Virus record (IMG/VR): IMGVR_UViG_3300045988_172778
Location: 1 to 64,000 of that record
Strand: one strand, 5' to 3'
Length of the DNA: 64,000 bases
Origin: a virus
Within the stretch, counting starts at the first letter, position 1. Each line of letters opens with the position of its first letter. The translations under genes were made by a program, and so were the position numbers. The notes below the pieces were generated by a model, which saw only the letters and a list, made by a program, of their open reading frames with translations, ran no database searches and had not been told where the DNA came from. Below, one piece after another: positions 1,767 to 49,447 of this stretch.

Positions 1767-2154
1767 ACTTTTTTAAGTTTATTTTAGACAAAAGAACTTT
1801 TTCCCTAAAAGAGAAATCTTCGTCTTTGCCTTTAAAGGTATCTTTTATATACCCTATATAATTATACTTTTCTTTTAGCTCTTCTATGTCTTTTACTACT
1901 TCTCTATATTCATCATCTGATAAATCTTTGAGATGTTTTTTATCCCATTTTTTCCAAAATTGTCTCGCAATTGAATTTTCTGGTAAAAGTTGATCTTGGG
2001 CTTGTCCGCAACGTTTATAGTCTCTTTTATTCTTAAAAAATTCATTCGCCTTTGTTGCGAAGTAGGGGTTTTCGTTATTCTCTAATGTGTAATACTCTAC
2101 TTCAAATATAACTAATTTTGTTATTTGAAAATAATATTTGAATTCTTTTTTCAT
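1765..2154 (-). CDS. hypothetical protein (129 aa), visibly AT-rich gene
   Basis: ORF with AAAAGGAG SD. By eye its composition is more AT-rich than its neighbours. Confidence 0.65.
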   Translation of the reverse strand: MKKEFKYYFQITKLVIFEVEYYTLENNENPYFATKANEFFKNKRDYKRCGQAQDQLLPENSIARQFWKKWDKKHLKDLSDDEYREVVKDIEELKEKYNYIGYIKDTFKGKDEDFSFREKVLLSKINLKK

Positions 2155-2210
2155 ACAACTCCTTTTCGGCTCTTGACGTATGAGAGTGTCCCGACGTATG
2201 TTGATTAGTT
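2155..2210 (-). repeat. Conserved intergenic motif, copy A (CTAATCAA..GGGACACT..GCCGAAAAGGAG)
   Basis: Aligns with 5585-5642 when read on the minus strand. It begins at a stop codon and ends at the next SD. Confidence 0.55.
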
Positions 2211-2404
2211 ATTTAAAGCTTCCAAATAAGCTTTGTATTGAGCCATCACGTTTTGCAGCGCTTGCTTACTTTCCTCATCAAATTGAGAAGAGTAATAGTT
2301 AATCGCTGTGCATGCCCAAGAGACAAAATTTTGCTTTTCTTCGGTTGTGCCAGTTTTGCGACTTCGATTGCGTCATTGATTGCTTGTTGTAATTCTTTAT
2401 CCAT
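2205..2404 (-). pseudogene. Small ORF needing a -1 frame change (or a homopolymer error)
   Basis: Frame 0 reads MDKELQQAINDAIEVAKLAQ, then runs into nonsense. The -1 frame reads EEKQNFVSWACTAINYYSSQFDEESKQALQNVMAQYKAYLEALNN-stop. The switch lies near GAAGAAAAGCAAAATTTTG. Confidence 0.35.
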
Positions 2405-2418
2405 AATATTTTACCTCC

Positions 2419-2793
2419 TTAATATTCCGAAATAATGATATAAACATCGCCGATTCTGTTTACCCATTCGCTGTCGAGCGGGTCGCATTCATCATCTGGC
2501 AAATTCCATTCCGTCAAAACGTATTTTATCGCGTCCGATTTGCTCCCGATAAAATCACAATTGCAAACGAGCCAATTCATCAAATCAGGAACGGTTTCAA
2601 AGCTTTTGAGCATTTCGATGTAACCTTGATATTGCTCTTCGAACGTCGGGTCGGTATCGTCATATCTTTCGAGCGGAAGGTAATCGAGATAATTTTTGTC
2701 GGAATCGAAGAGTTTCACTCTATCTTGCTCTTCGCGGTTTCCGAGTTCTTCGATGTAAAAGTCGCCTAAATAGTTGTTATTGATTTTACGCAT
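2419..2793 (-). CDS. hypothetical protein (124 aa)
   Basis: ORF with AAAGGAGGTAAAGAAC-ATG. Confidence 0.65.
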   Translation of the reverse strand: MRKINNNYLGDFYIEELGNREEQDRVKLFDSDKNYLDYLPLERYDDTDPTFEEQYQGYIEMLKSFETVPDLMNWLVCNCDFIGSKSDAIKYVLTEWNLPDDECDPLDSEWVNRIGDVYIIISEY

Positions 2794-2814
2794 GTTCTTT
2801 ACCTCCTTTATGCG

Positions 2815-3027
2815 TTAAATTTCCATTAAGTATTCGTCGCCCATGCAATTCGGGCAACCTTTGAAAACTTCATGTCTTACAGTTTTCGTGTCTTCGGGAA
2901 CGGGACCTTGCAGGACAAACCTGTCGATCGAGTGCCATTCGCCGTCGATAAGTTCAGTCTTTTCGACAATGTAAGATAAGTCGTTTTCGGTTTCAAAGAT
3001 TTCTTCACAATTGCAACATTTTATCAT
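2815..3027 (-). CDS. small zinc-ribbon protein (70 aa)
   Basis: CCNC...CPNC cysteine pairs. SD AAAGGAGG. Confidence 0.6.
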   Translation of the reverse strand: MIKCCNCEEIFETENDLSYIVEKTELIDGEWHSIDRFVLQGPVPEDTKTVRHEVFKGCPNCMGDEYLMEI

Positions 3028-3048
3028 AAATTTTGCCTCCTTTATGCG

Positions 3049-3360
3049 TTAAATTTCTTTGTTTAAATACAATTGTTGTTTGTATTTTCTATGTTCGCGC
3101 ATTATCGCAGCCCACTCTTCTTTTGTGGGGCGATAATCTTTCCAGTGTTTTTTTATTCGTTCGTCTTGTTTGCGCTTTATTTCTGGATTAACGATTAACT
3201 GAATTGTTTTACGACTTACACCGAATTGTTTTGCAAGAGGGCGAGTTCCAACCCCGCCCTCTGCATATATTGATTTGATTTGTTCTTTTTGGTCATCGGT
3301 TAATTTGCGCCGACGATCTTTTTCTGGTGGCAATTTAATTTTTTCTGATTTGTATGGCAT
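3049..3360 (-). CDS. helix-turn-helix DNA-binding protein (resolvase/Hin-type HTH)
   Basis: GTRPLAKQFGVSRKTIQLIV preceded by a basic region. SD AAGGAG. Confidence 0.55.
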   Translation of the reverse strand: MPYKSEKIKLPPEKDRRRKLTDDQKEQIKSIYAEGGVGTRPLAKQFGVSRKTIQLIVNPEIKRKQDERIKKHWKDYRPTKEEWAAIMREHRKYKQQLYLNKEI

Positions 3361-3372
3361 TTTATATCTCCT

Positions 3373-3765
3373 TTATACGTTTATTTCGTAAGTGCAGTTT
3401 TCAAGATTGATTTCGTTATAGTGATTACAAATCATATCAATCAAATCAATCTCATATTGATATTTCTTCAACTCTTCTTTATGATCGAGCCAACCCTCAA
3501 GTGTGTCGGGAATGTCGTCGCAACTAAATCCGAGTTCATCAACCCAGACGTTGCACAAATCTTCGTCGATGTAATCATCGATATAAATCGACATTCTTTC
3601 GAAGATTTGTTCTGCTGTCTCGAAGCGGTCATCTTCGATGTCGCCTATATTCGCTCCTTGACGATCTTCCAACCCGAAGCCGTCTTCGTACTTGATTAAC
3701 GAAAATTCCGTTAATTCGAGAAAAGAGTCAAAAAGTTTTTCGTATTTGTTTTGGTTTTTGTTCAT
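3373..3765 (-). CDS. hypothetical acidic protein (130 aa)
   Basis: ORF with GGAGGTATAAAAA-ATG. Confidence 0.65.
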   Translation of the reverse strand: MNKNQNKYEKLFDSFLELTEFSLIKYEDGFGLEDRQGANIGDIEDDRFETAEQIFERMSIYIDDYIDEDLCNVWVDELGFSCDDIPDTLEGWLDHKEELKKYQYEIDLIDMICNHYNEINLENCTYEINV

Positions 3766-3768
3766 TTT

Positions 3769-4005
3769 TTATACCTCCAAATTTTCTATTATTCTGTAAA
3801 CCGCGAATTCGCGAATTTTATAACAAAGCCCGTTATTGGGGTCATTTGTCTTTTGGTAATCGTCGGTGCGATAAGCGATTTTATAAATTTCGCACAATGT
3901 TTCGATGTTTTTGTTGCCATCGCACATCGCCATAAAAGACAAATCATCGACTGTGGAAGCCCAACCATCTGTTTCTAATCTTCTCATAAATTCTGCCTGT
4001 GTCAT
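3769..4005 (-). CDS. hypothetical protein (78 aa)
   Basis: ORF with AAAGGAGG SD. Confidence 0.6.
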   Translation of the reverse strand: MTQAEFMRRLETDGWASTVDDLSFMAMCDGNKNIETLCEIYKIAYRTDDYQKTNDPNNGLCYKIREFAVYRIIENLEV

Positions 4006-4017
4006 AATAAACCTCCT

Positions 4018-4335
4018 TTAATTAAAATTTTCTTCTGGAATGTTTGGACAGTAATCTTCATGAAACGTTATGTGAAAACAAGATTTATCGTCTTGCTTCA
4101 TTCTCCCATCGTCATCATAATACTCCAGATCTTCCATGTATGTTTGCCCACGATTTACGCATTCTAAACTTCTTAGAAATTCAAGAATCGCGTGCTTGTT
4201 TTTTATAAGAAAATCGTATTCTGCGCCCTTGAACTCATTGAAATAAATGGTGTATTTCCCATCGCGAGTTTCGAGCCTGCCTTTGATTTCGATTTTGCTT
4301 ACAAATTGCTGTAATTGAGCTTTGATAAAAATCAT
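4018..4335 (-). CDS. hypothetical protein (105 aa)
   Basis: Start moved to the ATG (MIFIKAQ) preceded by GAGGAGG. Confidence 0.6.
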   Translation of the reverse strand: MIFIKAQLQQFVSKIEIKGRLETRDGKYTIYFNEFKGAEYDFLIKNKHAILEFLRSLECVNRGQTYMEDLEYYDDDGRMKQDDKSCFHITFHEDYCPNIPEENFN

Positions 4336-4346
4336 AATAAACCTCC

Positions 4347-4547
4347 TCAGATTTTCTCTTCTTCCCAGCCGAACCATTTGTATGCTTCGACCATTTTGCT
4401 GATTGCCGACTTTTCGACCTTTATCGGTTCTCCGTAAAAACTCACGAAATCGCGATAAAACTTGCGGTTTGCAACGTCGACGCGAAGCCGCGCCGTATTG
4501 CCGTTTTTGTCTGTTTTACCTTTAAATTCGATAATTTCTGCTGTCAT
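4347..4547 (-). CDS. hypothetical protein (66 aa)
   Basis: Start moved to the ATG (MTAEIIEF) preceded by CGGAGG. Confidence 0.55.
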   Translation of the reverse strand: MTAEIIEFKGKTDKNGNTARLRVDVANRKFYRDFVSFYGEPIKVEKSAISKMVEAYKWFGWEEEKI

Positions 4548-4582
4548 TAATAAACCTCCGATTTTATTCAGAAAAAGATGGG

Positions 4583-4993
4583 TTATAAGCCCATCTTTTT
4601 CCATTTTTCTTCAAGAGCCTTTTCATTCAGCTCTTTTAAGTGTGCAAGCAATCCTTCCGAGAGAACTACCTTTTCGTCGTGAGTGTTGATTTTGCGAAGT
4701 TCTTCTTTTTCTTCATCAGTCAAGTCATCTTTGTATAACGTTCTGATGATGTCGATAAGTTCGCCGTAAATGTCAGCCGAGAACGAATAACCATATCCGT
4801 GACGACCTTTTCCGTAATAAGTCGTGAAATTACCGAAGCTTTGAAGAACTTCCATATAAGTTATATTTCCACGCTTCTTGTGGTCGATGTCGGTTACAAT
4901 GAAATACGGCTGAACGAACGGACGTTCTTTGCTTTCTATCGTGATGAAGAAATAGTCGGGTTTGCCTGCTTTGTAAATACTGTTGAATTCCAT
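4583..4993 (-). CDS. hypothetical protein (136 aa)
   Basis: ORF with TAGGAGGAATTCTTAT-ATG. Confidence 0.65.
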   Translation of the reverse strand: MEFNSIYKAGKPDYFFITIESKERPFVQPYFIVTDIDHKKRGNITYMEVLQSFGNFTTYYGKGRHGYGYSFSADIYGELIDIIRTLYKDDLTDEEKEELRKINTHDEKVVLSEGLLAHLKELNEKALEEKWKKMGL

Positions 4994-5161
4994 ATAAGAA
5001 TTCCTCCTAAAAATTTATTTGCGATTTGCGGATTGCTGTACGAGACCGCAGGCTCGCTTGCCCACCAGACGCTTTACCACTTCGGCAGGGACGTCTAAGC
5101 CCATTCAACGCTTTCGCGAGGAGTGCCTAATTCAGATTTGTCTAATCGTGATTTGACGATT

Positions 5162-5584
5162 TTAGTAATGCCAAGTGCAAATCAGTTCGTGATCAGTTTT
5201 ATCGATTACCTTGCATAAGCGACCATAATCAATATCGCCGAATTCATCGAGGAAACCGACTCTTATCCAATCTCCGACTTTGATATATAACGGAGCAGTG
5301 TCTCTTTTGAAGGTAATTTGATTACCTTCGCCGTAATGGTATTCGTCGGCAGTCACTTTCCAATCGACACCCCAATCATCATCGTCATCCTCTTCCTCTT
5401 CTTCGTCTTCTTCGTCTTCGAACGGGTCAAAACCCCAATCTTTTAAGTCTTCATCGGTTATCCCGATATCAGTTCCGAGCGTTAAGAGACGTTCGTAAGT
5501 TTCTTCTGCGGAGGTTTCTTCGCATAAATCGTTTACGAGTGCTTCGAGCAATTCTGCCTTTTTCTGTAATTCTAAGTTTTTCAT
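5162..5584 (-). CDS. highly acidic protein (140 aa)
   Basis: Start at MKNLELQ, preceded by AAAGGAA. Contains FEDEEDEEEEEDDDDDWG. Confidence 0.6.
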   Translation of the reverse strand: MKNLELQKKAELLEALVNDLCEETSAEETYERLLTLGTDIGITDEDLKDWGFDPFEDEEDEEEEEDDDDDWGVDWKVTADEYHYGEGNQITFKRDTAPLYIKVGDWIRVGFLDEFGDIDYGRLCKVIDKTDHELICTWHY

Positions 5585-5642
5585 AATAATTCCTTTTTCG
5601 GCTTTCAAGCAGGAAAGTGTCCCAAGGCTGTTTTGATTAGAG
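5585..5642 (-). repeat. Conserved intergenic motif, copy B
   Basis: CTAATCAAAACAGCCTTGGGACACTTTCCTGCTTGAAAGCCGAAAAAGGA on the minus strand. Aligns with 2155-2210. Confidence 0.55.
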
Positions 5643-6194
5643 AATTCCTTCGTCTTCGAGGGCTGTCTCGATGTCATCCATTGTGATACATACTTCGCAA
5701 TCTTCAGGGATCTCCCTGTCACAAGTTCTGTCATCTGTATATTTGATTACAACGGCTGGCGTATCTCCTCCATAAATTTCCGATTCGAAAAGTACGTAGG
5801 TTACACCGTTATGCGTTAAGTGGTCGATTTCATACCAAGTGCCGATTCGTCCCTCGATTCTGATATTATCGAGTTTCATATGCGGCAGTCTTTCGCGGTC
5901 TAAAACCAACTCATCTTTCAACGGAGTATAATCGATAAGATACTCGTTCCAAACCGCTTCGGTTATGTCTTCGCAATCGTCGAAGATTGTTTCGAGAAGC
6001 CAACGAAGTTGTTCGTTGGTATCTTTAATCGCCGATTGCCCGTAATATCGCCAACTAATGAATTTCGACGGATAAGGCGAGTGGAAGATTGCTCCTCCAA
6101 ACGCCTTGCCGTTCTTTTGCACGGGAATGTAGATTTTCCCGTTGTTGATGTTTCTGCGGATTTCCGCAATTTCCTGATTTGTGAATTTACGCAT
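5637..6194 (-). CDS. hypothetical protein (185 aa)
   Basis: Start moved to MRKFTNQ, preceded by TAAGGAGGTAATAAAC. Confidence 0.65.
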   Translation of the reverse strand: MRKFTNQEIAEIRRNINNGKIYIPVQKNGKAFGGAIFHSPYPSKFISWRYYGQSAIKDTNEQLRWLLETIFDDCEDITEAVWNEYLIDYTPLKDELVLDRERLPHMKLDNIRIEGRIGTWYEIDHLTHNGVTYVLFESEIYGGDTPAVVIKYTDDRTCDREIPEDCEVCITMDDIETALEDEGIL

Positions 6195-6207
6195 GTTTAT
6201 TACCTCC

Positions 6208-6498
6208 TTATGCGTTTTCTTTTGAAGTTTGTACGCGAGTGCATAATTCATAACTGCTTGTGCCATCGCTGTTGCTCGAACGATAATATTCGTCCGTATT
6301 TTTGAGAATTTCGTTTTCTCTATCTTCATCGATTAAAAATGCGATATCTTGATGTTTAAGTTCTTCGAATTTCTCCATCATATCTTCTTCAGTGTCGAAG
6401 ATATAAACAATGTAGTCGACTGCTAAATCATCGACGCAAGTTGCGAATAAGACATAAATTTCTTTTTGCGATTTTGTACAGTTTTTAACAGTAAGCAT
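6208..6498 (-). CDS. hypothetical protein, tandem paralogue 1 (96 aa)
   Basis: Shares Y-I/V-x-F-D-x-E-x-x-x-x-EKFE-L..D..FL and a C-terminal KNA with 6510-6785. Confidence 0.65.
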   Translation of the reverse strand: MLTVKNCTKSQKEIYVLFATCVDDLAVDYIVYIFDTEEDMMEKFEELKHQDIAFLIDEDRENEILKNTDEYYRSSNSDGTSSYELCTRVQTSKENA

Positions 6499-6509
6499 AT
6501 TTTACCTCC

Positions 6510-6785
6510 TTATGCGTTTTTAGTTGTTAACAAATCGAGTGTATAGTGACTTTCGGCATAATCGCCTTCAGGATAGGATTGATACCAATACCCATCTCTT
6601 TCGATTACGTCATCTCTTTCCTCTTCTTTAAGGAACTCTGTGTCATCTGCGGCAAGTTGCTCAAATTTTTCGTGTGCTGCTTTTTCATTGTCGAAAATGA
6701 ATGTTTCGATTTCTTCGTAACCTTCCGAACAGCTGTTTTCAATAATGATGTAAAGTTCTGTTTTGTTTGTTCTTAAATCGTTCAT
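6510..6785 (-). CDS. hypothetical protein, tandem paralogue 2 (91 aa)
   Basis: Similar to 6208-6498. SD is present. Confidence 0.65.
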   Translation of the reverse strand: MNDLRTNKTELYIIIENSCSEGYEEIETFIFDNEKAAHEKFEQLAADDTEFLKEEERDDVIERDGYWYQSYPEGDYAESHYTLDLLTTKNA

Positions 6786-22803: not shown

Positions 22804-24465
22804 ATGCCAGTTTTGCAAAACCTGTATCAGGTTTATAAATTACCATCGAGTTTTATTGTTGAGAATAATTTAAAAATCGATAATTATACTCGAAAACGAG
22901 CGATTCAAGACGGAAATCTTGTAAGTGTCGGCGACAATATGGTATTTTATAAAATTCGGGATTATTATGGGGACACAAGAAGTCACAAAGAGATTTTCGA
23001 CGCGGTGCAAAATCTTCGAACAACTCTTCGTATTTGTAAAAGAGAAGGGAAAATACTCGAAGGGCACATCGTAAATCAACAAATTCAGGATATTCTTTTT
23101 GTGAAAGACATAATTGTTGTAGTTTGCGAGAAGAAATCTGAATATCTAAAAATTGGTACAAAAGGATTTGAAATAAACGGAGTCAGATATACGAGACTTT
23201 GCGCGGGAGCTGGAAATTTGCGCCGTAACAATGCGATTTATGTAAACGAGAAGCTTTACCCTTATCTTTACGAAGTGTTTATGTGCGGGCTTGCAGACAA
23301 ACTTAAAGAAGCGGTTCTTCCAAAACTCAGCGCGTATTTTGCGCTTTCCTTTTCGTCGGTTTTGTGGGTTAGAACGCCGCGAGTTTGCGTGATAAAAGAC
23401 TTCGAAACGACGCTCCCCAATCAGAACGTCGATTTCATTTGTCGAAAGGAAGAATTGGACGACGAAGGAAAACCTCGAACGAAACATTACATCGAAAAAT
23501 GCGTGATGGATTTAACGCTCAATAGTGCGGACGGCCAAGGTTTGGTAGACCCCGAATTCAGTAAATTGTGGGCGGAAGATATGCAGCTCGATTATGTGCC
23601 TTCATCGTTTGTTGTCAGAAGTTCGTTCGTGAAAGGGAACCTCGTTCCGTTTGATTTTAAGGCTTACGCAGCGGAACACGGAATAGACAAAATCAAAGAC
23701 AGATGGGGCGTTGAATACCCGTTGAATGAAATTGATGTTTTATTAAGCGAGTCACAATTTAAAGAATATAAGGAATATTCGAGCTGGCAGGAATATTTGC
23801 ATTATTTTAATAAATACAAGCTTCGTTGGGGCGTCGCCCGTTATAATAAAAAACACGATGATGAATACGTTCTCGCGAATTACCAATATATTCAAGCGCT
23901 TGCCCTTTCGAAGGAAGATATTCACGGGTTAATTCAACCGACAATCGATTGGATAAAAAACATTTGTTCGGGAGATGATTTATACAGCCTTCTTTTTATG
24001 TTCGGAGGTAAAAGCGAAGATGTGACTTACGAGAGAATGTACTCTTCGGCGCAATCGACGTTTATGAAAGCGATCGTAAAAAACAACGAGATGCTGAAAG
24101 ACGCGCACGTTCAGCGGAAGATTTACAAAAACATCGTTGAGTGTATAAACCGTGCGAAGATTGGCAAGATTTGGGTGAGAGGAAATTACCAGTTTATGAT
24201 TTCTGACCCGATCGCGCAGTGCCAGTCGGCGTTGGGATTACCAGTTAAAGGGGAAATTCCAGCCGAACACGTTTGGTCGAATTTTTGGAATGAACGACGA
24301 ATTGAGGGTTATGTTGACTGCTGTCGTTCGCCAATGATCGATACAAGTGAGCATAACCCGTCGAAGTTATATAAAAGCGAAACCACAGAAAAGTGGTATC
24401 AATATATAAAGAGTGGTTTGGTGTACAGCATATACGATGTCGCGACATTTAAACACTCGGATAGT
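22804..24465 (+). CDS. YonO/RdRP-like single-subunit RNA polymerase, exon 1
   Basis: Ends CCRSPMIDTSEH...ATFKHSDS(D). The frame then runs into the intron (LTI-stop at 24480). Confidence 0.55.
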
Positions 24466-25460
24466 GACTTAACGATATAGGTCCTGCGATTGGTGACAAT
24501 CGTATGCAAACTCGGTGAACCCATAAATGTGGGGTGTGGAGATTAATCTCTGCTAACGACAAAAATCTTCTTTCGATTTTCGCAATATAAATACGAGAAG
24601 GTGATATTGTTGGATTTTGATAAGATAGATTTTTCTGTAAAGAAATATGATAAAACTCGTAAATATTATGTTTATGAGTGGTATAATGTTGAAACTGGCG
24701 CTGTCTTTTATGTTGGTAAAGGTAGCGGTGGTAGATACAAAAGAGTGACAAATAGTTCTCGAAATATATATTTTTTAAGATATTACAACAAATATAAATG
24801 TGATAGCAGGATTTTATTTTGTGGCTTGACGGAAGAAGAAGCATATCTTAAAGAAAAAGAAATTATAATAAAATATAATAAACTCGGCTATCAATTAACG
24901 AATTGTGACGAAGGAGGGCACCCTGGTGGAGCTAATTCTGGAGAAAAAAATGGTATGTATGGAAAGACCCATACTCCAGAAGTTCGTAAAATCCTAAGAG
25001 ATGTTAATCTTGGAAAGATTGGCAAAACAAATTCAAACGCAAAGTATTGCGATGTTTATGACGATAAGTTTGAATTTATAAAATATTTCGATTGTATAAC
25101 CGATGCAATGAATTATATTGGTGAAATAGAGAACAGAACATATAAGAGTATGGTAACGTATTTTTGGAGATATCAAAACGGAACCATAGATATTATACTA
25201 AATAAGTATCATATAAAAATTTATAGAAAATCGAGAGAAGACAATGACGTGCCAAGCGTTTCTAAAAATGGAAATGAAGGTACAACGACTATCGAAAGCG
25301 TATAAATAGAGAAATACTATTTAAAGTAAGCAAGTAGAGTACCAATGAGTGAAATTCTCAACGGGAAGTGCCGAGGTTCTTATATTTGGTGAAAGAATAT
25401 AAGAATATAAAATAGTCTATACCCCTAATAAATATCGGGCGACCGAGGGTAGGAATAGTC
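24466..25460 (+). mobile_element. putative group I intron with GIY-YIG ORF (boundaries +/- a few nt)
   Basis: Interrupts the DxDGD codons. GNRA hairpin at 24486-24503. 10-bp hairpin at 25377-25405. CTCGG/CCGAGG complementary boxes. Confidence 0.5.
24601..25305 (+). CDS. GIY-YIG homing endonuclease with NUMOD3-like motif
   Basis: YYVYEWYNVETGAVFYVGKGSGGRYK...EEEAYLKEKE...N, then GEKNGMYGKTHTPEVRKI. AT-rich. Confidence 0.8.
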   Translation: MILLDFDKIDFSVKKYDKTRKYYVYEWYNVETGAVFYVGKGSGGRYKRVTNSSRNIYFLRYYNKYKCDSRILFCGLTEEEAYLKEKEIIIKYNKLGYQLTNCDEGGHPGGANSGEKNGMYGKTHTPEVRKILRDVNLGKIGKTNSNAKYCDVYDDKFEFIKYFDCITDAMNYIGEIENRTYKSMVTYFWRYQNGTIDIILNKYHIKIYRKSREDNDVPSVSKNGNEGTTTIESV

Positions 25461-26600
25461 GATGGAGACATTGCCCTTTCAACAGATAATGAATATTTCT
25501 TGAAAGGCGCCCATCGTGGAGAAAGTATAATAACTTACGAAAAAGGAATTGCTCGCAAGGAAGAGATTTCCCAGAAAAACTTCGTAAAAAAAGACCTTAT
25601 GGGTTTTGGTACGGCGGTCGGCAGCCTTTCAAACACCGCGACGATTATTTACGCGATGATTGGGATTTTCAATAAACCCGAGCAGGAGCCGCAACGCCAA
25701 GAGTTATACACACGAATAAAGCTTCTTCGCGAATACGTCGGGCAGGAAATCGATAGAGCGAAACTCGGAATAAAGCAGCAAAAACTTCCAGTTGAGTGGA
25801 GAAAATATATTCATGTAAATAAAGATGATACCGATGAAATAAAGGCGGAAAAATATAAACACAATTCCATGGTAATTAAAAAGAAACCTTATTTCTTTCG
25901 TTATCTTTATCCTGAATGTAATAAAGAGTTTAAACAATTTGAAAATGGCTATAACATTATATCAAAAGATATGTTTGGGCTGAAATTAAAAAAGCTTTTT
26001 GCGAAACCAAACAAAACGGGAAAAGAAATGACGCTCGTTAGACAATATCAAAAGAATTGCCCTCTGATTGTTTCAAATTGTACAATGAATATCTTATGTA
26101 AAGAATTTGAGAATGTTGATTTTGACATAAAATTTGGTAAATCTAATGTGAACATGCTTAATCTTTATCAAAATGAAGGTTTTAAAGTCAATTCATCAAT
26201 TCTTACGAAGTTTCGCAACGCTTATCGTAAATATAACAATAAAAAGACAATAATTGCGCTCGATGATGTTTTTGAAAACAAAGACGAGGACGATATAAAG
26301 AATATTTACAATCTCGTTCTCGATACGGCAAAGCAGGAAATCCAGGAAGAAATTTTCGGGTTCGGGTTAAAGCCCAAGGAAATGCTTTTTTACGTCGGTC
26401 AGCTTGCGAAGGAATATACAAATTTCAATTGGAGTTTTGTTTGGGACATAATGGATTCAATCGTTCTCGAAGGCGTTGAACAAGGGAAAAGTTACGCACC
26501 AGTTCGTTCGGAAGACGGAGAAGAATATCTCGGCGAGAAGTTCGTGCTCAAAGAAGTTATAAAGAGAGCCGAAGGGGAGGTTTATACGAATGTTGAATGA
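25461..26600 (+). CDS. YonO/RdRP-like RNA polymerase, exon 2
   Basis: The frame is open from 25416 with no start or SD. It reads DGDIALSTDNEYFLKGAH... Confidence 0.55.
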   Translation, partial: DGDIALSTDNEYFLKGAHRGESIITYEKGIARKEEISQKNFVKKDLMGFGTAVGSLSNTATIIYAMIGIFNKPEQEPQRQELYTRIKLLREYVGQEIDRAKLGIKQQKLPVEWRKYIHVNKDDTDEIKAEKYKHNSMVIKKKPYFFRYLYPECNKEFKQFENGYNIISKDMFGLKLKKLFAKPNKTGKEMTLVRQYQKNCPLIVSNCTMNILCKEFENVDFDIKFGKSNVNMLNLYQNEGFKVNSSILTKFRNAYRKYNNKKTIIALDDVFENKDEDDIKNIYNLVLDTAKQEIQEEIFGFGLKPKEMLFYVGQLAKEYTNFNWSFVWDIMDSIVLEGVEQGKSYAPVRSEDGEEYLGEKFVLKEVIKRAEGEVYTNVE

Positions 26601-27195
26601 TACGACGATAAATCGATTATTAGAGACAAAAGAAATAACCTCTCTCGATGAGCTGAAACAGTTAACGGTTTATTTTACGCAAAAAGGTGTCGACGTTTCT
26701 CAAATACTCGAAACGCTCGAAAAGTACGAAATCAAGTTCGAAATCAAAGGCGTAAAAATTGAAGAAATCGTTCGGCTTTTAGCGGCAATAAATCCGCCTT
26801 CAAAAAAAGAAAAGCAGGAAGAATTCGAGATTTACGAGTTGGAAGTCCGTTATTTACAAAGAGTTAAAAACGAAGACGACAGAAAAATTCTCTTTTTACT
26901 TTTGGCAATATCAAAATACGATAATCATCCGACGGGGTGGATAAAATACAACCGCGACTTACTTTTCAATTTTTGGGGGATGAAACTCACAAACCCCCAA
27001 AGATCAGAGGTTATAAAGCGGTGTTGCGAGATTGGCGCGATTGATTTGCGCGTTATCGGGAGCAAGAACCCGATTGTGTGTTTTAAGGTGAATTTCAGGA
27101 ATTATGATTTTGCCAATGCGGTGACAAAATTGAGTTTTAACGGCGCATCATTGATTGAGTTTTACGATAGCTATTTATACGGAGAAAGCGAATGA
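26590..27195 (+). CDS. hypothetical protein (201 aa)
   Basis: ORF with GGGGAGG SD. Overlaps the previous stop. Confidence 0.65.
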   Translation: MLNDTTINRLLETKEITSLDELKQLTVYFTQKGVDVSQILETLEKYEIKFEIKGVKIEEIVRLLAAINPPSKKEKQEEFEIYELEVRYLQRVKNEDDRKILFLLLAISKYDNHPTGWIKYNRDLLFNFWGMKLTNPQRSEVIKRCCEIGAIDLRVIGSKNPIVCFKVNFRNYDFANAVTKLSFNGASLIEFYDSYLYGESE

Positions 27196-27974
27196 ACGAT
27201 TACATATTTGATTGGGCGGGAAACAGCGAAAAGATTTTGGCGGGCGGAGGTTATACAACCAAAGTCCACCAAACCTTCGAGCAGATAATGCTTTTCGCGT
27301 ATTTAAGAGAAAAGGGATACAGCAAAGACGAAATATTCAGTTTGTGGATTAAAACCGACTCATTGCTTCTCCAAAAAATCGGAGATGACAAAGACCAGAG
27401 AGATAAATATTTTGGGAAGTTGTTCGCGGATTCGACGAAGTATAAGATCGAGAAAGGAAATCGGATAGATATTTATCAGAGCGAAATTGATTTTATCAAC
27501 AATATGGAAGTGAGTATGTGGATAAAACAGTACGTTCTCGCGATGCTGTGTATTTATAAGTGGTATGGGAAGGAATGGTGCGTTTATAACGATAAGATTA
27601 AGAGGTTTTGCTATAGTTGCACGAGCACGAAAAGGGAGAGAGATAGTAATATAAAAGCATTATTCCAGTCTTTAACTAAATACAAAGCATATTTAATTGC
27701 GTCTATAGATAATTTTATTTCTTTTAAAATACTCTTTCAACTAAATGGTGGCAGCAAGTTAATGAGTATTGATAGCCCTAGAGATATAGAGAAAATTTTT
27801 AAATATATAGAAAATGTGAAAACTTGTTTGCAATGCGGGAAAATTTTTAAATATGATCACCATAATCAACACAAAAAAATATGTTATGAATGTTATTCTA
27901 AACAAAGAAATGGTTTTAATAGAGGTCTAAATCACCGTCATTTGTCAATTTCTAATATTATGAAAACAGACTGA
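27192..27974 (+). CDS. hypothetical protein with C-terminal zinc-ribbon (260 aa)
   Basis: CLQCGK...CYECY. ATGA overlap. Confidence 0.65.
   Translation: MNDYIFDWAGNSEKILAGGGYTTKVHQTFEQIMLFAYLREKGYSKDEIFSLWIKTDSLLLQKIGDDKDQRDKYFGKLFADSTKYKIEKGNRIDIYQSEIDFINNMEVSMWIKQYVLAMLCIYKWYGKEWCVYNDKIKRFCYSCTSTKRERDSNIKALFQSLTKYKAYLIASIDNFISFKILFQLNGGSKLMSIDSPRDIEKIFKYIENVKTCLQCGKIFKYDHHNQHKKICYECYSKQRNGFNRGLNHRHLSISNIMKTD
27930..27964 (+). repeat. 35-nt repeat, copy 1
   Basis: AATCACCGTCATTTGTCAATTTCTAATATTATGAA. 34/35 identical to 32122-32156. Confidence 0.9.
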
Positions 27975-48331: not shown

Positions 48332-49447
48332 ATGTTATATTTAGACTATGCAAAACCTGTTGATGGCGGTTATATACTTAATTTCTTCGCCGATAAAGTT
48401 GAGGATATGGAATCCATAACTGGCGGCAAAGAATTTATCACAAAGAACGGCACGAATTACGGCGTTCCCCTTAAAGGTTCGACGGTCGTAATAACCGCTC
48501 CTGACAAAGAGAAGAAGACGTTCGTTCTCGATGAAAATGGGGAATGGAACGAGGGCGGATTAGACCCGAACCAATTTTACACGAAGGAAGCTGCTGACGA
48601 AAAATTCATGGAAAAGGCAGGCGGCTCGATAACTGGCGACCTTACCGTTGGTGGTAATCTTGTTGTAAACGGAAAGACGACCACGGTTGAATCCGAGAAC
48701 CTCGCCGTTAAAGATAAACTTATCGAGGTTGCGGCTGGAAACGCGGCGAAGCTTGCGGCACCCGCTGGTCTCGTTGTCCCGAAATATGACGGGACGAATT
48801 CTGGTGCGCTCGTATTTGACGGCGACGGAATTGCTTATGTCGGTGACGTTGTTTTGAACGCGAAAGGCGATATAGACGTTTCGCAGAGTGACCTTGCGGC
48901 GTTGGCGGTAAAGAAAGATATACCCACTGATTATCTTGTCGGTGGCGAGCAGACAGCCACTTCTGAAGACGATGGCGGAGCTAACGTATTCACGTTCACG
49001 AAAGCTGACGGAAAGACCGCAACATTTACAGTGAAGAACGGATCAAGGGGCGCAGTTGGTCCCGCAGGCCCCGCTGGCGCAAAGGGCGAAACTGGTGAAG
49101 CAGGAGCCCAAGGCGCGGTTGGCCCGACTGGTCCCAAGGGAGACAAAGGAGACGTAGGTCCGACTGGCCCGCAGGGTCCGAAAGGCGATGCGGGTGCGGC
49201 TGGTGCAGCGGGTGCGGCTGGTCCGAAAGGTGACGCAGGTCCGCAGGGACCTATTGGTCCGACAGGCCCGAAAGGAGATCAGGGTGAGACTGGTCCCGCA
49301 GGTGCAGCTGGCGCGAAAGGCGCAACGGGTGCGCACGTTACAGCTATAACGCTTACGAAGGATTCGACGGGCGCGATAACTAGCGGCACGGCTTCTTTGA
49401 GCGATGGCACGAGCGTTCCCATAACGGTAACGGTTGCAGAAGCGTAA
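48332..49447 (+). CDS. collagen-like tail fibre, MLYLDYAK-type N-terminus
   Basis: N-terminal paralogy plus ~94 residues of GXY. Confidence 0.7.
49048..49330 (+). repeat. collagen-like GXY triplet tract
   Basis: [22 protein letters not shown]...GAKGATG. Confidence 0.9.

What the first reader, a model, noticed from the sequence alone, without database searches (positions are those of the whole stretch)
22804..26600. The catalytic DxDGD loop of a YonO/RdRP-like phage RNA polymerase is interrupted by a GIY-YIG-bearing group-I-like intron
Coding evidence:
- ORF 22804-24480 ends ...GYVDCCRSPMIDTSEH-(about 35 aa)-ATFKHSDSD, then runs LTI-stop.
- The frame of ORF 25500-26600 is already open from 25416. 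It reads ...VDGDIALSTDNEYFLKGAH with no ATG/GTG and no SD ahead of it.
- Joining GAT AGT (24460-24465) to GAT GGA GAC (25461-25469) restores HSDSDGDIAL. This is an S-D-x-D-G-D loop about 45 residues after an R-S-P motif.
- That arrangement matches the metal-binding loop of double-psi-beta-barrel cell-type RdRPs (QDE-1/RDR) and of the SPbeta DNA-dependent RNA polymerase YonO. This comparison is recalled knowledge, not a search.

The ~995-nt insert:
- It carries a GIY-YIG/NUMOD3 ORF.
- RNA-like structure flanks the ORF: a GNRA-capped hairpin GCGATTG-GTGA-CAATCGT (24486-24503), a 10-bp hairpin (25377-25405), and a CTCGG box (24511) complementary to two CCGAGG boxes (25371, 25443).

Interpretation: the only catalytic loop of the phage's own RNAP would exist only after RNA splicing. 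I am not aware of a described intron in this polymerase family.

The splice sites are unresolved. A canonical P1 (GACU 24466-24469 with GGUC 24480-24483, U.G wobble) plus omega-G at 25461 is also in frame, but it would give DSDYGD.
Basis: partly seen in the sequence, partly recalled or inferred. Interest (0 to 1): 0.85.

Follow-up and report, generated by a model that had tools for sequence, protein, structure and literature searches.

The report
Mobile intron splits phage RNA polymerase
A 989-base mobile group I intron carrying its own DNA-cutting enzyme sits inside the codons for the magnesium-binding loop of this phage's YonO-type RNA polymerase, so the enzyme can only be made after RNA splicing; this is a familiar kind of selfish element in a gene family where I found no published description of one.

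Summary
The two ORFs (22804-24480 and the frame open from 25416 to 26600) are halves of one YonO-like two-barrel RNA polymerase gene.

**Junction.** A 94%-identical uninterrupted orthologue (P0001, 935 aa) and its contig (L010) show a clean 989-nt insertion at 24470-25458. Splicing after U24469 and after G25458 joins GAC T|TC GAT GGA GAC. This gives HSDSDFDGDIAL, the canonical DFDGD loop, not DSDGD or DSDYGD.

**Insert.** It has a group I architecture:
- P1 with a U.G pair and a terminal G.
- Covarying P3, P7, P7.2 and P8, plus R/S core elements.
- A 16-bp P5 stem that closes the loop carrying a divergent GIY-YIG/NUMOD3 endonuclease ORF.

A covariance model built only from relatives hits 25243-25458 (E 2.6e-13). 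It also hits the proven Twort introns. Rfam's own model does not reach threshold.

**Selection and distribution.** Both exons are under strong purifying selection (dN/dS about 0.05). Related introns occupy this loop, 5 nt downstream, and a second conserved motif in Clostridium phage c-st, Enterocloster phages and SPbeta-like Goe11/Goe14, unannotated as introns. Splicing itself is inferred, not shown.

**Verdict.** New member of a known kind; moderate interest.

The parts
22804..24469 (+). Exon 1 of the YonO-like RNA polymerase gene. It encodes residues 1-555 plus the first base of the Phe556 codon, and contains the R-S-P motif and the first Asp of DFDGD.
   Evidence: ORF. tblastn to SPbeta yonO, E 6e-23. 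Collinear with the intron-less L010 up to 24469/24470. dN/dS 0.043 against L010.
24470..25458 (+). Group I intron, 989 nt, IA2-like (Twort/td type). The endonuclease ORF sits in the P5 loop.
   Evidence: Clean insertion relative to L010 and P0001. It follows exon U24469 and ends in G25458. Helix table, covariation, CM R1 hit.
24466..24483 (+). P1. Exon GACU plus intron UA (24466-71) pairs with UAGGUC (24478-83). U24469.G24480 is the wobble pair at the 5' splice site. CGA 24473-75 in the loop can pair with the first exon-2 bases UCG (P10, by eye).
   Evidence: 6/6 paired. Same geometry in L005A and Goe11. The guide sequence covaries with the exon sequence across relatives. Recovered in the MFE fold.
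24486..24503 (+). P2 hairpin, GCGATTG-GTGA-CAATCGT.
   Evidence: 7/7 paired. Present in the MFE fold.
24511..24517 (+). P3 5' strand (CTCGGTG). It pairs with 25369-25375 (TGCCGAG) across 851 nt.
   Evidence: 7/7 paired. Four of the five core pairs show compensatory changes in 7 introns.
24520..24551 (+). Two extra hairpins between P3 and J3/4: hp_i 24520-24533 and hp_ii 24538-24551. They are followed by J3/4 CTAAC and the P4 5' strand (24556-24560).
   Evidence: All family members have both hairpins, with covariation. They are absent from the Twort orf142 introns.
24566..24581 (+). P5 extension, 5' arm. A 16-bp helix with 25226-25241 closes the ORF-bearing loop.
   Evidence: the repeat finder pair I5, 16 nt and 94% complementary, with the single mismatch a G.U. 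16/16 paired. Present in the MFE fold.
24601..25305 (+). Intron-encoded homing endonuclease ORF: a divergent GIY-YIG catalytic domain plus NUMOD3. The likely start is TTG 24607 or 24610, after the SD-like GAGAAGG. The last ~25 codons overlap the ribozyme core (P5', P4', P6 and the P7 5' strand).
   Evidence: NUMOD3 20.3 bits. phrog_314 3.2e-13. The family alignment conserves YVY/YVG/R43/E83/N99. AF2 model pLDDT 83; the top nine Foldseek hits are all GIY-YIG nucleases. No PF01541 hit.
25226..25280 (+). P5 3' arm (25226-41), P4 3' strand (25246-50) and the P6 hairpin (25252-80).
   Evidence: Sequence GACAATGACGTGCCAAGCG...GAAGGT is homologous to the Twort and L005B P4'/P6 region.
25284..25292 (+). 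R element AACGACTAT. GACTAT 25287-92 is the P7 5' strand.
   Evidence: The only AACGACTA in the window. It pairs with ATAGTC 25412-17. Goe11 shows a compensatory GACCAT/ATGGTC.
25346..25375 (+). P7.2 hairpin (25346-60), the conserved GGGAAGTG linker, and the P3 3' strand (25369-75).
   Evidence: Aligned by CM R1.
25376..25406 (+). P8 hairpin.
   Evidence: 11-12 bp. Covaries in L005A, L005B, L006B and Goe11.
25412..25458 (+). S element and P7 3' strand (ATAGTC 25412-17), P9 (CCC 25422-24 with GGG 25447-49) enclosing the GNRA hairpin TCGG-GCGA-CCGA (25435-46), and the 3' tail ...GGAATAG ending in omega-G 25458.
   Evidence: CM R1 aligns its last position to 25458. The tail is homologous to ...GTAGTAAAG| and ...GTATCAAAG| of relatives whose ends are fixed by intron-minus alleles.
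25459..26600 (+). Exon 2. TC completes Phe556, followed by D-G-D-I-A-L... to the stop codon. It contains the second conserved motif EIDRAK.
   Evidence: Collinear with L010 from 25459. dN/dS 0.052. The spliced product is 935 aa, the same length as P0001-P0005.

Best explanation
The region is one gene for a 935-aa single-chain two-barrel (YonO-type) DNA-dependent RNA polymerase. A 989-nt mobile group I intron (24470-25458) interrupts it.

**Position.** The intron lies after the first base of the Phe codon of the Mg-binding D-F-D-G-D loop.

**Proposed expression pathway.**
1. The gene is transcribed, presumably by the host polymerase.
2. The intron folds into an IA2-like ribozyme: P1 with U24469.G24480, then P2, P3/P8, P4-P6, P7 with the R/S elements, and P9.
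3. Guanosine attacks after U24469.
4. The freed exon 1 attacks after omega-G25458.
5. The ligated mRNA reads GAC T|TC GAT GGA GAC, giving ...HSDSDFDGDIAL....

**Proposed mobility.** The loop of P5, closed by a 16-bp stem, carries a GIY-YIG/NUMOD3 homing-endonuclease gene. Its product would cut intron-less alleles near this highly conserved coding sequence in co-infecting relatives, and the intron would spread by recombinational repair.

**Shown computationally:**
- the exact insertion boundaries;
- restoration of the invariant motif;
- the conserved and covarying RNA structure;
- homology of the ribozyme core to proven self-splicing introns;
- polymerase family and fold;
- purifying selection on both exons.

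**Inferred:** actual self-splicing, endonuclease activity and target site, and which polymerase transcribes the gene.
For: **Junction**
- P0001 (94% identical, uninterrupted, 935 aa) reads ...ATFKHSDSDFDGDIALST... The predicted spliced product is also 935 aa.
- blastn of the window against the intron-less contig L010: window 22804-24470 matches gene nt 1-1667, and window 25459-26598 matches gene nt 1667-2806.
- In an alignment of 39 homologues including SPbeta YonO, R508, P510, D555, D557 and D559 are invariant.
- YonO with all three Asp changed to Asn is inactive (PMC5467207).

**Intron**
- The helix table shows P1-P9 all paired, including the 16-bp P5.
- Of 26 hand-extracted pairs in 7 introns, 100% are paired, against 76% in shuffles and 23-38% when the partner is slid. 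18 pairs show compensatory changes, a number reached by 0 of 500 shuffles.
- CM R1, whose seed excludes the window, hits 25243-25458 at 66.6 bits, E 2.6e-13, over the full model and ending at omega-G.
- R1 also hits the three Twort orf142 introns (E 2e-6 to 1.5e-4) and the c-st intron.
- RF00028 hits the ORF-less relatives L005 (39 bits, E 3.7e-8) and L017 (31 bits, E 2.7e-6).
- In Enterocloster phages, intron-plus and intron-minus alleles give inserts that follow an exon U and end in G.

**Polymerase**
- tblastn to yonO, E 6e-23.
- phrog_8308, 1e-77.
- Foldseek of the AF2 model (pLDDT 88): RDR2 1.8e-17, QDE-1 1.4e-13, phage P32 gp64 RNAP 4.6e-6.

**Function retained**
- dN/dS 0.043 for exon 1 and 0.052 for exon 2 against the intron-less allele.

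**No independent C-half**
- There is no start codon between 25416 and 25500.
Against: - No RNA data exist, so splicing is inferred.
- Rfam RF00028 finds nothing in the window itself, neither in 24300-25700 at E<=1 nor in 25225-25475 at E<=10. Relatives score below the gathering threshold of 50 bits.
- P4 in the window is weak (4 of 5 paired).
- The core has two hairpins between P3 and J3/4 that the Twort introns lack.
- The unconstrained MFE fold pairs CTCGG with the other CCGAG box, so P3 rests on comparative evidence.
- The covariation test used hand-picked strands, which favours pairing.
- The endonuclease domain fails Pfam GIY-YIG (PF01541) and has only weak Foldseek E-values (0.013-0.4).
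- The DNA boundary has a 1-nt ambiguity (T). It is resolved only by the omega-G rule and the CM alignment.
Confidence: 0.92

Rival explanations
1. A 'gene in pieces'. A homing-endonuclease cassette split the polymerase gene, there is no splicing, and the two halves are translated separately and assemble into an active enzyme, as reported for some T4-like phage genes.
For: Two long ORFs flank an endonuclease ORF. Such split genes are annotated as separate proteins in c-st and Goe11/14.
Against: - The break falls inside a codon (T|TC) within the five-residue metal loop.
- The C-half has no ATG/GTG/TTG or SD before 25500, so it would lack the G-D of DFDGD.
- The flanks of the ORF form a conserved, covarying ribozyme core with a canonical U.G and omega-G.
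- ORF-less versions of the same insert exist at this loop: L017 (297 nt), c-st (317 nt) and CB473P3 (433 nt). An endonuclease cassette model does not explain these.
Confidence: 0.03
2. A dead gene. The intron, or this copy of it, no longer splices and the polymerase is a pseudogene in this phage.
For: No Rfam hit in the window. P4 is weak. The core has unusual features.
Against: - dN/dS is about 0.05 in both exons against the intron-less allele.
- The same intron at the same site occurs in several independent contigs or clusters: L018, L024, P0025, P0028, P0029 and P0041.
- All core helices are intact.
- In SPbeta the polymerase specifically transcribes the late genes (PMC5467207), so loss of function would be expected to be costly to the phage. 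That step is inference.
Confidence: 0.03
3. One reading: exons joined 24465|25461 (DSDGD), or U24469 with omega-G 25461 (DSDYGD).
For: Both are in frame. The second uses the correct P1.
Against: - All five closest uninterrupted orthologue clusters are 935 aa, and the three whose sequences were read carry DSDFDGD or DSDWDGD.
- Of 106 full-length homologues, every one has D-[FYWH]-D-G-D.
- The first option makes the intron end in C.
- Neither option matches the DNA boundary with L010 or the CM end point.
Confidence: 0.01

Closest known systems
PhiPA3 gp210 intron in the virion RNA polymerase beta-subunit gene (Birkholz et al. 2024, PMC11620839); also the 'mobile intron' separating gp273/274 of 201phi2-1 (PMC2919709)
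   Same: A putative group I intron with a homing endonuclease interrupts a phage two-barrel RNA polymerase gene right at conserved catalytic-region Asp residues.
   Different: - Those are multisubunit (beta-like) polymerases of jumbo phages, and the endonuclease is HNH.
- Here the host gene is a single-chain YonO-type enzyme.
- The site is the beta'-type DFDGD metal loop itself.
- The endonuclease is GIY-YIG-like.
Staphylococcus phage Twort orf142 introns (AF132670) and T4 td/I-TevI (IA2 phage introns)
   Same: - Same core: R element AACGACTAT, S element (GAT)ATAGTC, the P4'/P6 sequence AATCCTGTGCCAAGC, P7.1/P7.2 peripheral elements and GNRA-capped P2/P9.
- CM R1, built from the yonO introns, hits all three Twort introns.
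- T4 td carries a GIY-YIG enzyme. That point is from my own knowledge.
   Different: - Two additional covarying hairpins lie between P3 and J3/4.
- The ORF is in the P5 loop and runs into P4'-P6-P7.
- RF00028 scores are far lower: none for the window and 31-39 bits for relatives, against 64-101 bits for Twort.
- The host gene is different.
Unannotated interrupted yonO homologues in GenBank: Clostridium phage c-st CST179/CST178, Bacillus phages Goe11/Goe14 yonO_1/yonO_2, Enterocloster phages CB473P3/CB457P1/CB473P1, and MT835481.1
   Same: - They share the same intron family, including near-identical 3' tails such as CCCTAATAAAATATCGGGAAACCGAGGGTATCAAAG in Goe11.
- They interrupt the same polymerase family.
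- They sit at conserved motifs.
   Different: - The insertion sites differ. Site A lies after D-F-D, 5 nt downstream of the window's site. Site B lies after the D of (E/L)ID|(R/K/F)AK.
- The cargo differs: none, LAGLIDADG, HNH+NUMOD4, canonical GIY-YIG, or an AP2-domain ORF.

Membership tests
Group I intron | The 5' splice site follows an exon U that forms a U.G wobble in P1 with an internal guide sequence. | tested here: met
   U24469.G24480 lies within the 6-bp P1 (24466-71 with 24478-83). U.G is present in 7 of 7 relatives, and the guide covaries with the exon.
Group I intron | The last intron nucleotide is G (omega-G). | tested here: met
   G25458. The boundary comes from the intron-less allele to within 1 nt, and CM R1 ends there. 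Relatives with unambiguous boundaries all end in G.
Group I intron | A conserved core of P3-P8 and P4-P6 domains, with P7 pseudoknotted to P3 and carrying the R and S sequence elements. | tested here: met
   Helix table. Covariation: 18 of 26 pairs are compensatory, reached by 0 of 500 shuffles (strands were hand-picked). The R/S motifs are each unique in the window at the right spacing. P4 is weak (4 of 5 paired).
Group I intron | Match to the curated covariance model Rfam RF00028 at the gathering score (50 bits). | tested here: inconclusive
   - Window: no hit. The 705-nt ORF in P5 prevents a global match.
- ORF-less relatives at the same loop: 39.0 bits (E 3.7e-8) and 31.1 bits (E 2.7e-6), below threshold.
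- Positive control: Twort, 64-101 bits.
Group I intron | Homology to experimentally proven self-splicing introns. | tested here: met
   CM R1, seeded from yonO-family introns only, hits the window (E 2.6e-13) and the three Twort orf142 introns (E 2e-6, 5e-5, 1.5e-4). blastn of the core hits multiple loci in Twort-like, Listeria and Bacillus phages.
Group I intron | Guanosine-dependent self-splicing. | not testable with these tools
   Needs an in vitro transcription and splicing assay, or RT-PCR.
YonO-like / cell-type RdRP two-barrel RNA polymerase | Sequence homology to SPbeta YonO. | tested here: met
   tblastn E 6e-23 for the N half. The junction peptide gives continuous hits to yonO (9e-10) and BUCT082 (6e-38). 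phrog_8308, 1e-77.
YonO-like / cell-type RdRP two-barrel RNA polymerase | An invariant D-x-D-G-D Asp triad preceded by an R-x-P motif. | tested here: met
   Present only after splicing: R508-S-P510 and D555-F-D557-G-D559. All are invariant in 39 homologues. 106 of 106 full-length homologues have D-[FYWH]-D-G-D.
YonO-like / cell-type RdRP two-barrel RNA polymerase | Overall fold of the QDE-1/RDR type (two double-psi beta-barrels). | tested here: met
   - AF2 model of the 94%-identical orthologue P0001: pLDDT 88, pTM 0.81.
- The top 22 Foldseek PDB hits are all RDR2, QDE-1 or phage P32 gp64 RNAP, with E 1.8e-17 to 4.6e-6.
- A sequence profile against the PDB is only weak (RDR2, E 0.15).
- Pfam RdRP is sub-threshold on the N half (14.8 bits) and gives no hit on P0001 in a fresh scan. 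Precomputed PF05183 is listed for many of the more distant homologues.
YonO-like / cell-type RdRP two-barrel RNA polymerase | DNA-dependent RNA synthesis. | not testable with these tools
   Shown only for SPbeta YonO (PMC5467207).
GIY-YIG homing endonuclease (I-TevI-like, with NUMOD3) | The catalytic signature GIY...YIG...R...E...N. | tested here: met
   In the 45-sequence family alignment, Y21-V-Y23, F34-Y-V-G-K-G39 and R43 are nearly invariant, and E83 and N99 are invariant. The spacing resembles I-TevI (the I-TevI spacing is from my own knowledge).
GIY-YIG homing endonuclease (I-TevI-like, with NUMOD3) | Match to the curated domain model Pfam PF01541. | tested here: not met
   No PF01541 hit at E<=1 and no NCBIfam hit. 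Close homologues also lack a precomputed PF01541. BLASTP against I-TevI is not significant. The catalytic domain is therefore best called divergent GIY-YIG-like.
GIY-YIG homing endonuclease (I-TevI-like, with NUMOD3) | GIY-YIG fold. | tested here: inconclusive
   AF2 model pLDDT 83. The nine best Foldseek PDB hits are all GIY-YIG nucleases: PD-T4-3 (E 0.013, prob 1.00) and the UvrC N-domain (prob 0.66-0.85, TM 0.50 on the target). No hit reaches E<=1e-3.
GIY-YIG homing endonuclease (I-TevI-like, with NUMOD3) | NUMOD3 DNA-binding motif and membership of a homing-endonuclease family. | tested here: met
   NUMOD3 scores 20.3 bits against a cut-off of 20.4, which is borderline. phrog_314 'homing endonuclease', 3.2e-13. 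PMC11878797 describes that PHROG as GIY-YIG I-TevI-like plus NUMOD3.
GIY-YIG homing endonuclease (I-TevI-like, with NUMOD3) | Site-specific cleavage of the intron-less allele. | not testable with these tools
   Needs purified protein and the L010-type target DNA.

The most novel reading that the evidence does not exclude
The DFDGD-coding stretch of YonO-type polymerase genes may be a contested homing hotspot.

- In near-identical gut-phage genes, related ribozyme cores occupy two sites only 5 nt apart, plus a third site at a conserved motif about 98 residues downstream.
- These cores carry four unrelated endonuclease types or none.
- Exon mosaicism just upstream of the site looks like co-conversion.

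The most novel reading is that these introns act as weapons in phage-phage interference competition, as shown for PhiPA3 gp210. Each endonuclease would disable a co-infecting rival's only late-gene polymerase at its catalytic loop. The neighbouring-site introns would then protect against each other's enzymes.

A secondary novelty is that the ribozyme is a distinct structural subclass. It has a two-hairpin insertion between P3 and J3/4, and some members lack P8.
Probability: 0.25. Interest if true: 0.65.

Novelty: new member of a known kind. Interest (0 to 1): 0.42.

Why it matters
**Annotation.**
- YonO-type polymerases in SPbeta-like, Clostridium botulinum (c-st), Enterocloster and many uncultured gut phages are being annotated as two or three unrelated 'hypothetical proteins', or as 'N-ter only / C-ter only' fragments.
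- They are in fact single genes with self-splicing introns.
- Of the 19 protein clusters most similar to this gene (79% identity or more), 13 are truncated at this loop.

**Biology.**
- The only metal-binding loop of the YonO-type polymerase (which in SPbeta transcribes the late genes) is encoded across an RNA splice junction.
- Late transcription therefore presumably depends on ribozyme activity.
- The site offers a natural system for studying competition between homing endonucleases, and intron-mediated phage interference, at an RNA polymerase active site.

**Method.** The intron family shows that Rfam's group I model misses real phage introns with atypical cores.

Tried and rejected
**Searches that found nothing**
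- Rfam cmscan on 24300-25700 (E<=1) and on 25225-25475 (E<=10) gave no group I hit.
- A 33-kb batch scan of relatives also found nothing. Small-range scans did recover sub-threshold RF00028 hits.
- Megablast of the region against the phage collection gave no match.
- Pfam and NCBIfam gave no GIY-YIG hit for the endonuclease. phmmer against the PDB found nothing.
- A profile of the polymerase family against PDB sequences gave only a weak RDR2 hit (E 0.15). There is no YonO structure in that copy of the PDB by sequence.
- A search for further introns in the window found none. The R and S motifs each occur once in the right context, and CM R1 gives no second hit.
- Literature searches for 'yonO' with 'intron' were mostly noise from author names. 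The whole-word search gave 11 papers; I read the three most relevant and none mentions an intron in a YonO-type gene.

**Ideas considered and rejected**
- Intein: there are in-frame stops directly after the junction.
- Group II intron: the size is wrong, there is no reverse transcriptase, and group I R/S elements are present.
- Pairing of CTCGG 24511 with the second CCGAGG box. The single-sequence MFE favours it, but relatives with a different P9 contradict it.

**Failed or uninformative steps**
- A genome-contig scan gave only two MAG contigs and no reliable host.

Full report
**1. What is in the sequence**

ORF 22804-24480 (558 aa) ends ...GYVDCCRSPMIDTSEH...ATFKHSDSDLTI*. The frame of ORF 25500-26600 is open from 25416 and reads SIPLINIGRPRVGIVDGDIALSTDNEYFLKGAH.... 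It has no ATG, GTG or TTG before TTG 25500. Between the two lies ORF 24601-25305 (234 aa). That ORF hits Pfam NUMOD3 at the threshold (20.3 against 20.4 bits) and PHROG 314 'homing endonuclease' (3.2e-13).

**2. The two halves are one YonO-type polymerase gene**

- The N half hits SPbeta yonO by tblastn (E 6e-23) and phrog_8308, an 847-position profile (1e-77).
- A peptide spanning the proposed junction gives continuous hits in single ORFs of Bacillus phage BUCT082 (6e-38, 100% coverage), Enterocloster phage PMBT24 and SPbeta yonO.
- A search of the 5.8-billion-protein collection with the conceptually spliced protein returned 780 homologues.
- The best hit, P0001, is 94% identical, covers 100% of the query and is 935 aa, exactly the length my junction predicts. 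It reads ...YDVATFKHSDSDFDGDIALSTNNEYFLKGAHRGESIITYEKG....
- In an alignment of 39 homologues including SPbeta YonO, R508, P510, D555, D557 and D559 (P0001 numbering) are invariant.
- Forrest et al. showed that changing the YonO Asp triad to Asn abolishes RNA synthesis (PMC5467207).
- An AlphaFold2 model of P0001 (pLDDT 88, pTM 0.81) matches plant RDR2 (Foldseek E 1.8e-17), Neurospora QDE-1 (1.4e-13) and phage P32 gp64 RNA polymerase (4.6e-6). All 22 significant hits are of this kind.
- Sequence-only comparison with the PDB is weak (RDR2, E 0.15).

**3. The exact junction**

blastn of the window against L010, the 80-kb contig that encodes P0001, gives two blocks. Window 22804-24470 matches gene nt 1-1667. 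Window 25459-26598 matches gene nt 1667-2806. This is a clean insertion with a 1-nt (T) ambiguity.

Taking the intron as 24470-25458 makes it follow an exon U and end in G. It joins GAT AGT GAC T|TC GAT GGA GAC, giving D-S-D-F-D-G-D.

- 24465|25461 gives DSDGD, and the intron would end in C.
- U24469 with omega-G 25461 gives DSDYGD.

**4. The insert is a group I intron**

*Independent anchors.* Enterocloster phages provide intron-plus and intron-minus pairs. Relative to PMBT24, CB473P3 has a 433-nt ORF-less insert exactly between GAT|GGA of D-F-D|G-D ('site A'). It also has a 471-nt insert after NELD|KLKG ('site B'). CB473P1 has a 1131-nt site-B insert with an ORF. All three follow an exon U and end in ...AAAG.

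*Shared motifs.* The window's insert shares with these:
- GGTGAACC...GGGTGT;
- the R element AACGACTAT;
- the S element ATAGTCTA;
- a 3' tail TAGGAATAG|.

*Helices in the window.*
- P1: 24466-71 with 24478-83, with U24469.G24480.
- P2: 24486-24503.
- P3: 24511-17 with 25369-75.
- Two extra hairpins: 24520-33 and 24538-51.
- J3/4: CTAAC.
- P4: 24556-60 with 25246-50 (4 of 5 paired).
- P5: a 16-bp stem, 24566-81 with 25226-41, also found by the repeat finder.
- P6: 25252-80.
- P7: 25287-92 with 25412-17.
- P7.2: 25346-60.
- P8: 25376-25406.
- P9: encloses the GNRA hairpin 25435-46.

*Covariation.* I tested 26 pairs in six helices, extracted by hand from seven introns.
- All 182 cells form standard pairs, against a shuffle mean of 76% and 23-38% when the 3' partner is slid.
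- 18 pairs have compensatory changes, a number reached by 0 of 500 shuffles.
- The long-range P3 varies as CUCGG/CCGAG, AAUGG/CCAUU, UGUAG/CUACA, AGUGG/CCACU, AUCGG/CCGAU and GUCAG/CUGAC.
- P7 shows GACUA/UAGUC changing to GACCA/UGGUC in Goe11.
- Caveat: the strands were chosen by me, which favours pairing.

*Covariance model.* R1 covers the 3' domain from P4' to omega-G. It was built from six relatives, with the window excluded.
- It hits window 25243-25458 at 66.6 bits, E 2.6e-13, over the full model length and ending on G25458. There is no other hit in the 64 kb.
- It also hits the three experimentally established Twort orf142 introns (37.1, 30.7 and 28.6 bits; E 2e-6 to 1.5e-4) and the c-st insert.

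*Rfam.* RF00028 detects the Twort introns at 64-101 bits. For the ORF-less relatives it gives only sub-threshold hits: 39.0 bits (E 3.7e-8), 31.1 bits (E 2.7e-6) and a partial 27.2 bits. It finds nothing in the window. I attribute this to the ORF in P5 and to the atypical P3-J3/4 insertion.

*Single-sequence fold.* An ORF-deleted core folds to -113 kcal/mol against -75 +/- 5 for mononucleotide shuffles (z = -7.6). The fold recovers P1, P2, P5, P7.2 and P8. As expected, it does not recover the pseudoknotted P3/P7.

**5. The endonuclease**

- The ORF probably starts at TTG 24607 or 24610, behind the SD-like GAGAAGG.
- Its family (97 homologues) nearly always conserves YVY...FYVGKG...R and invariably E83 and N99. 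This is the GIY-YIG signature.
- Pfam PF01541 is not matched.
- An AF2 model (pLDDT 83) has only GIY-YIG nucleases among its nine best PDB matches. The E-values are weak, 0.013-0.4.
- I therefore call it a divergent GIY-YIG/NUMOD3 enzyme.
- Its last ~25 codons are the ribozyme's P5'-P4'-P6-P7 strand. Homologues share the translated core (...VPS...TTTESI), so this enzyme family habitually lives in this intron type.

**6. Is the gene functional?**

Between the window's spliced CDS and the intron-less L010 allele, dS is 0.70 and dN is 0.036 (dN/dS 0.05). The ratio is 0.043 for exon 1 and 0.052 for exon 2. This argues against a pseudogene. It also argues for production of the full-length protein, which requires removal of the insert at the RNA level, because the insert carries in-frame stops.

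**7. Distribution**

Among the close clade, 13 clusters at 90% identity are truncated at this loop:
- four at the window's site (...DSDLTI* or ...DSDLTT*);
- nine at site A (...DFDKQLSK* and similar).

The uninterrupted clusters P0001-P0006 make up the rest of that clade.

Site-A introns carry four kinds of cargo:
- a LAGLIDADG ORF (L012, L014, L015);
- an HNH+NUMOD4 ORF (MT835481.1);
- nothing (L017, 297 nt);
- nothing (c-st, 317 nt between CST179 and CST178).

Goe11 and Goe14 'yonO_1/yonO_2' are separated by a site-B intron with a canonical GIY-YIG ORF.

**8. Comparison with what is known**

Group I introns with homing endonucleases in conserved, catalytic parts of essential phage genes are well known (PMC2814812, PMC11878797).
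- An intron at conserved Asp residues of a jumbo-phage RNA polymerase beta subunit has been characterised functionally (PhiPA3 gp210, PMC11620839).
- Another is noted in 201phi2-1 (PMC2919709).

I found no paper describing an intron in a YonO-type polymerase. The library is incomplete, however, and GenBank records already contain unrecognised examples.

**Verdict.** This is a real feature and a new member of a known kind. It corrects the splice junction and is useful for annotation. The open questions are modest but genuine: the competing neighbouring sites and the atypical ribozyme core.

Noticed in passing
L004 (Clostridium phage c-st, AP008983) 2711-3027: A 317-nt ORF-less group I intron sits between CST179 and CST178, at GAT ATG GAT|...|GGA GAT (D-M-D|G-D). 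CST179 is annotated 'YonO-homolog (N-ter only)' and CST178 is annotated as a hypothetical protein. The c-st polymerase gene is probably intact after splicing. CM R1 hits it (32.3 bits).
   Followed up: partly
L001/L002 (Bacillus phages Goe11/Goe14) 5483-6772: The genes annotated yonO_1 and yonO_2 are separated by a 1290-nt intron of the same family. It lies at a second site, after ...NNFTID|FAK, and carries a canonical GIY-YIG+NUMOD3+HTH ORF (PF01541, 30.8 bits). Its 3' tail is almost identical to the window's.
   Followed up: partly
L005 2345-2777 and 3060-3530; L006 2027-3157 (Enterocloster phages CB473P3, CB473P1): CB473P3 carries two ORF-less introns in the polymerase gene (site A and site B). 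CB473P1 carries the site-B intron with a 250-aa ORF that has a weak AP2-domain hit. PMBT24 has neither intron. All of these are annotated as strings of hypothetical proteins.
   Followed up: yes
window 24520-24551, and the equivalent positions in L017, L003, L005, L006 and L001: Two covarying hairpins lie between the P3 5' strand and J3/4. The Twort orf142 introns lack them. In most relatives the second hairpin has a conserved AGGAAATGA loop. This may define a structural subclass and probably explains the low Rfam scores.
   Followed up: partly
L017 3394-3416; L012; L003 2963-2985: The site-A introns of L017, L012 and MT835481.1 have no P8 hairpin between P3' and the S element (only CATAGATGAT). 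P8 is normally part of the group I core. Whether another element substitutes for it is unexplained.
   Followed up: no
window 24243-24400 (gene nt ~1440-1600, 70-230 nt upstream of the intron): DNA identity to the intron-less allele L010 drops to 66-80% here, against 91-95% on either side. Identity to the site-A intron-bearing allele L012 is 98% in the same stretch. This mosaic pattern looks like a co-conversion tract or endonuclease-target divergence.
   Followed up: partly
window 25231-25305, and alignment A1: The C-terminal residues of the endonuclease (...DNDVPS...EGTTTIESV) are conserved among its homologues. They are the translation of the ribozyme core (GTGCCAAGC = P4'/P6; ACAACGACTATC = R element). 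The coding sequence and the catalytic RNA overlap.
   Followed up: partly
window 26590-27195 and 27192-27974: The polymerase stop overlaps the next ORF (201 aa, DUF4850 23.9 bits) by 11 nt. The ORF after that (260 aa) ends in a CxxC...CxxC zinc ribbon that weakly resembles the C-terminus of SPbeta YonO (BLASTP E 0.12). Part of YonO's C-terminal region may be a separate gene here, as c-st CST177 ('C-ter only') suggests.
   Followed up: partly
L024 (CAVKBM010000005.1, 'Bacteroidaceae bacterium' MAG bin) 2001-5793: A 62-kb contig in a Bacteroidaceae MAG bin carries the same polymerase gene with a ~985-nt interruption. This is probably a phage contig that was binned with a bacterium, so it gives no reliable host assignment.
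   Followed up: no
window 48342-48349 (- strand): This is the second exact ATAGTCTA in the window. No R element or CM R1 hit accompanies it, so it is probably a chance match.
   Followed up: partly
L017 3373-3396; L005 2653-2678: Rfam 'TMV_UPD-PK3' gives weak hits (E 0.04-0.12) on the conserved CTTAAATCGAAGTGC linker between P7.2 and P3'. These are spurious matches to an intron core segment.
   Followed up: no
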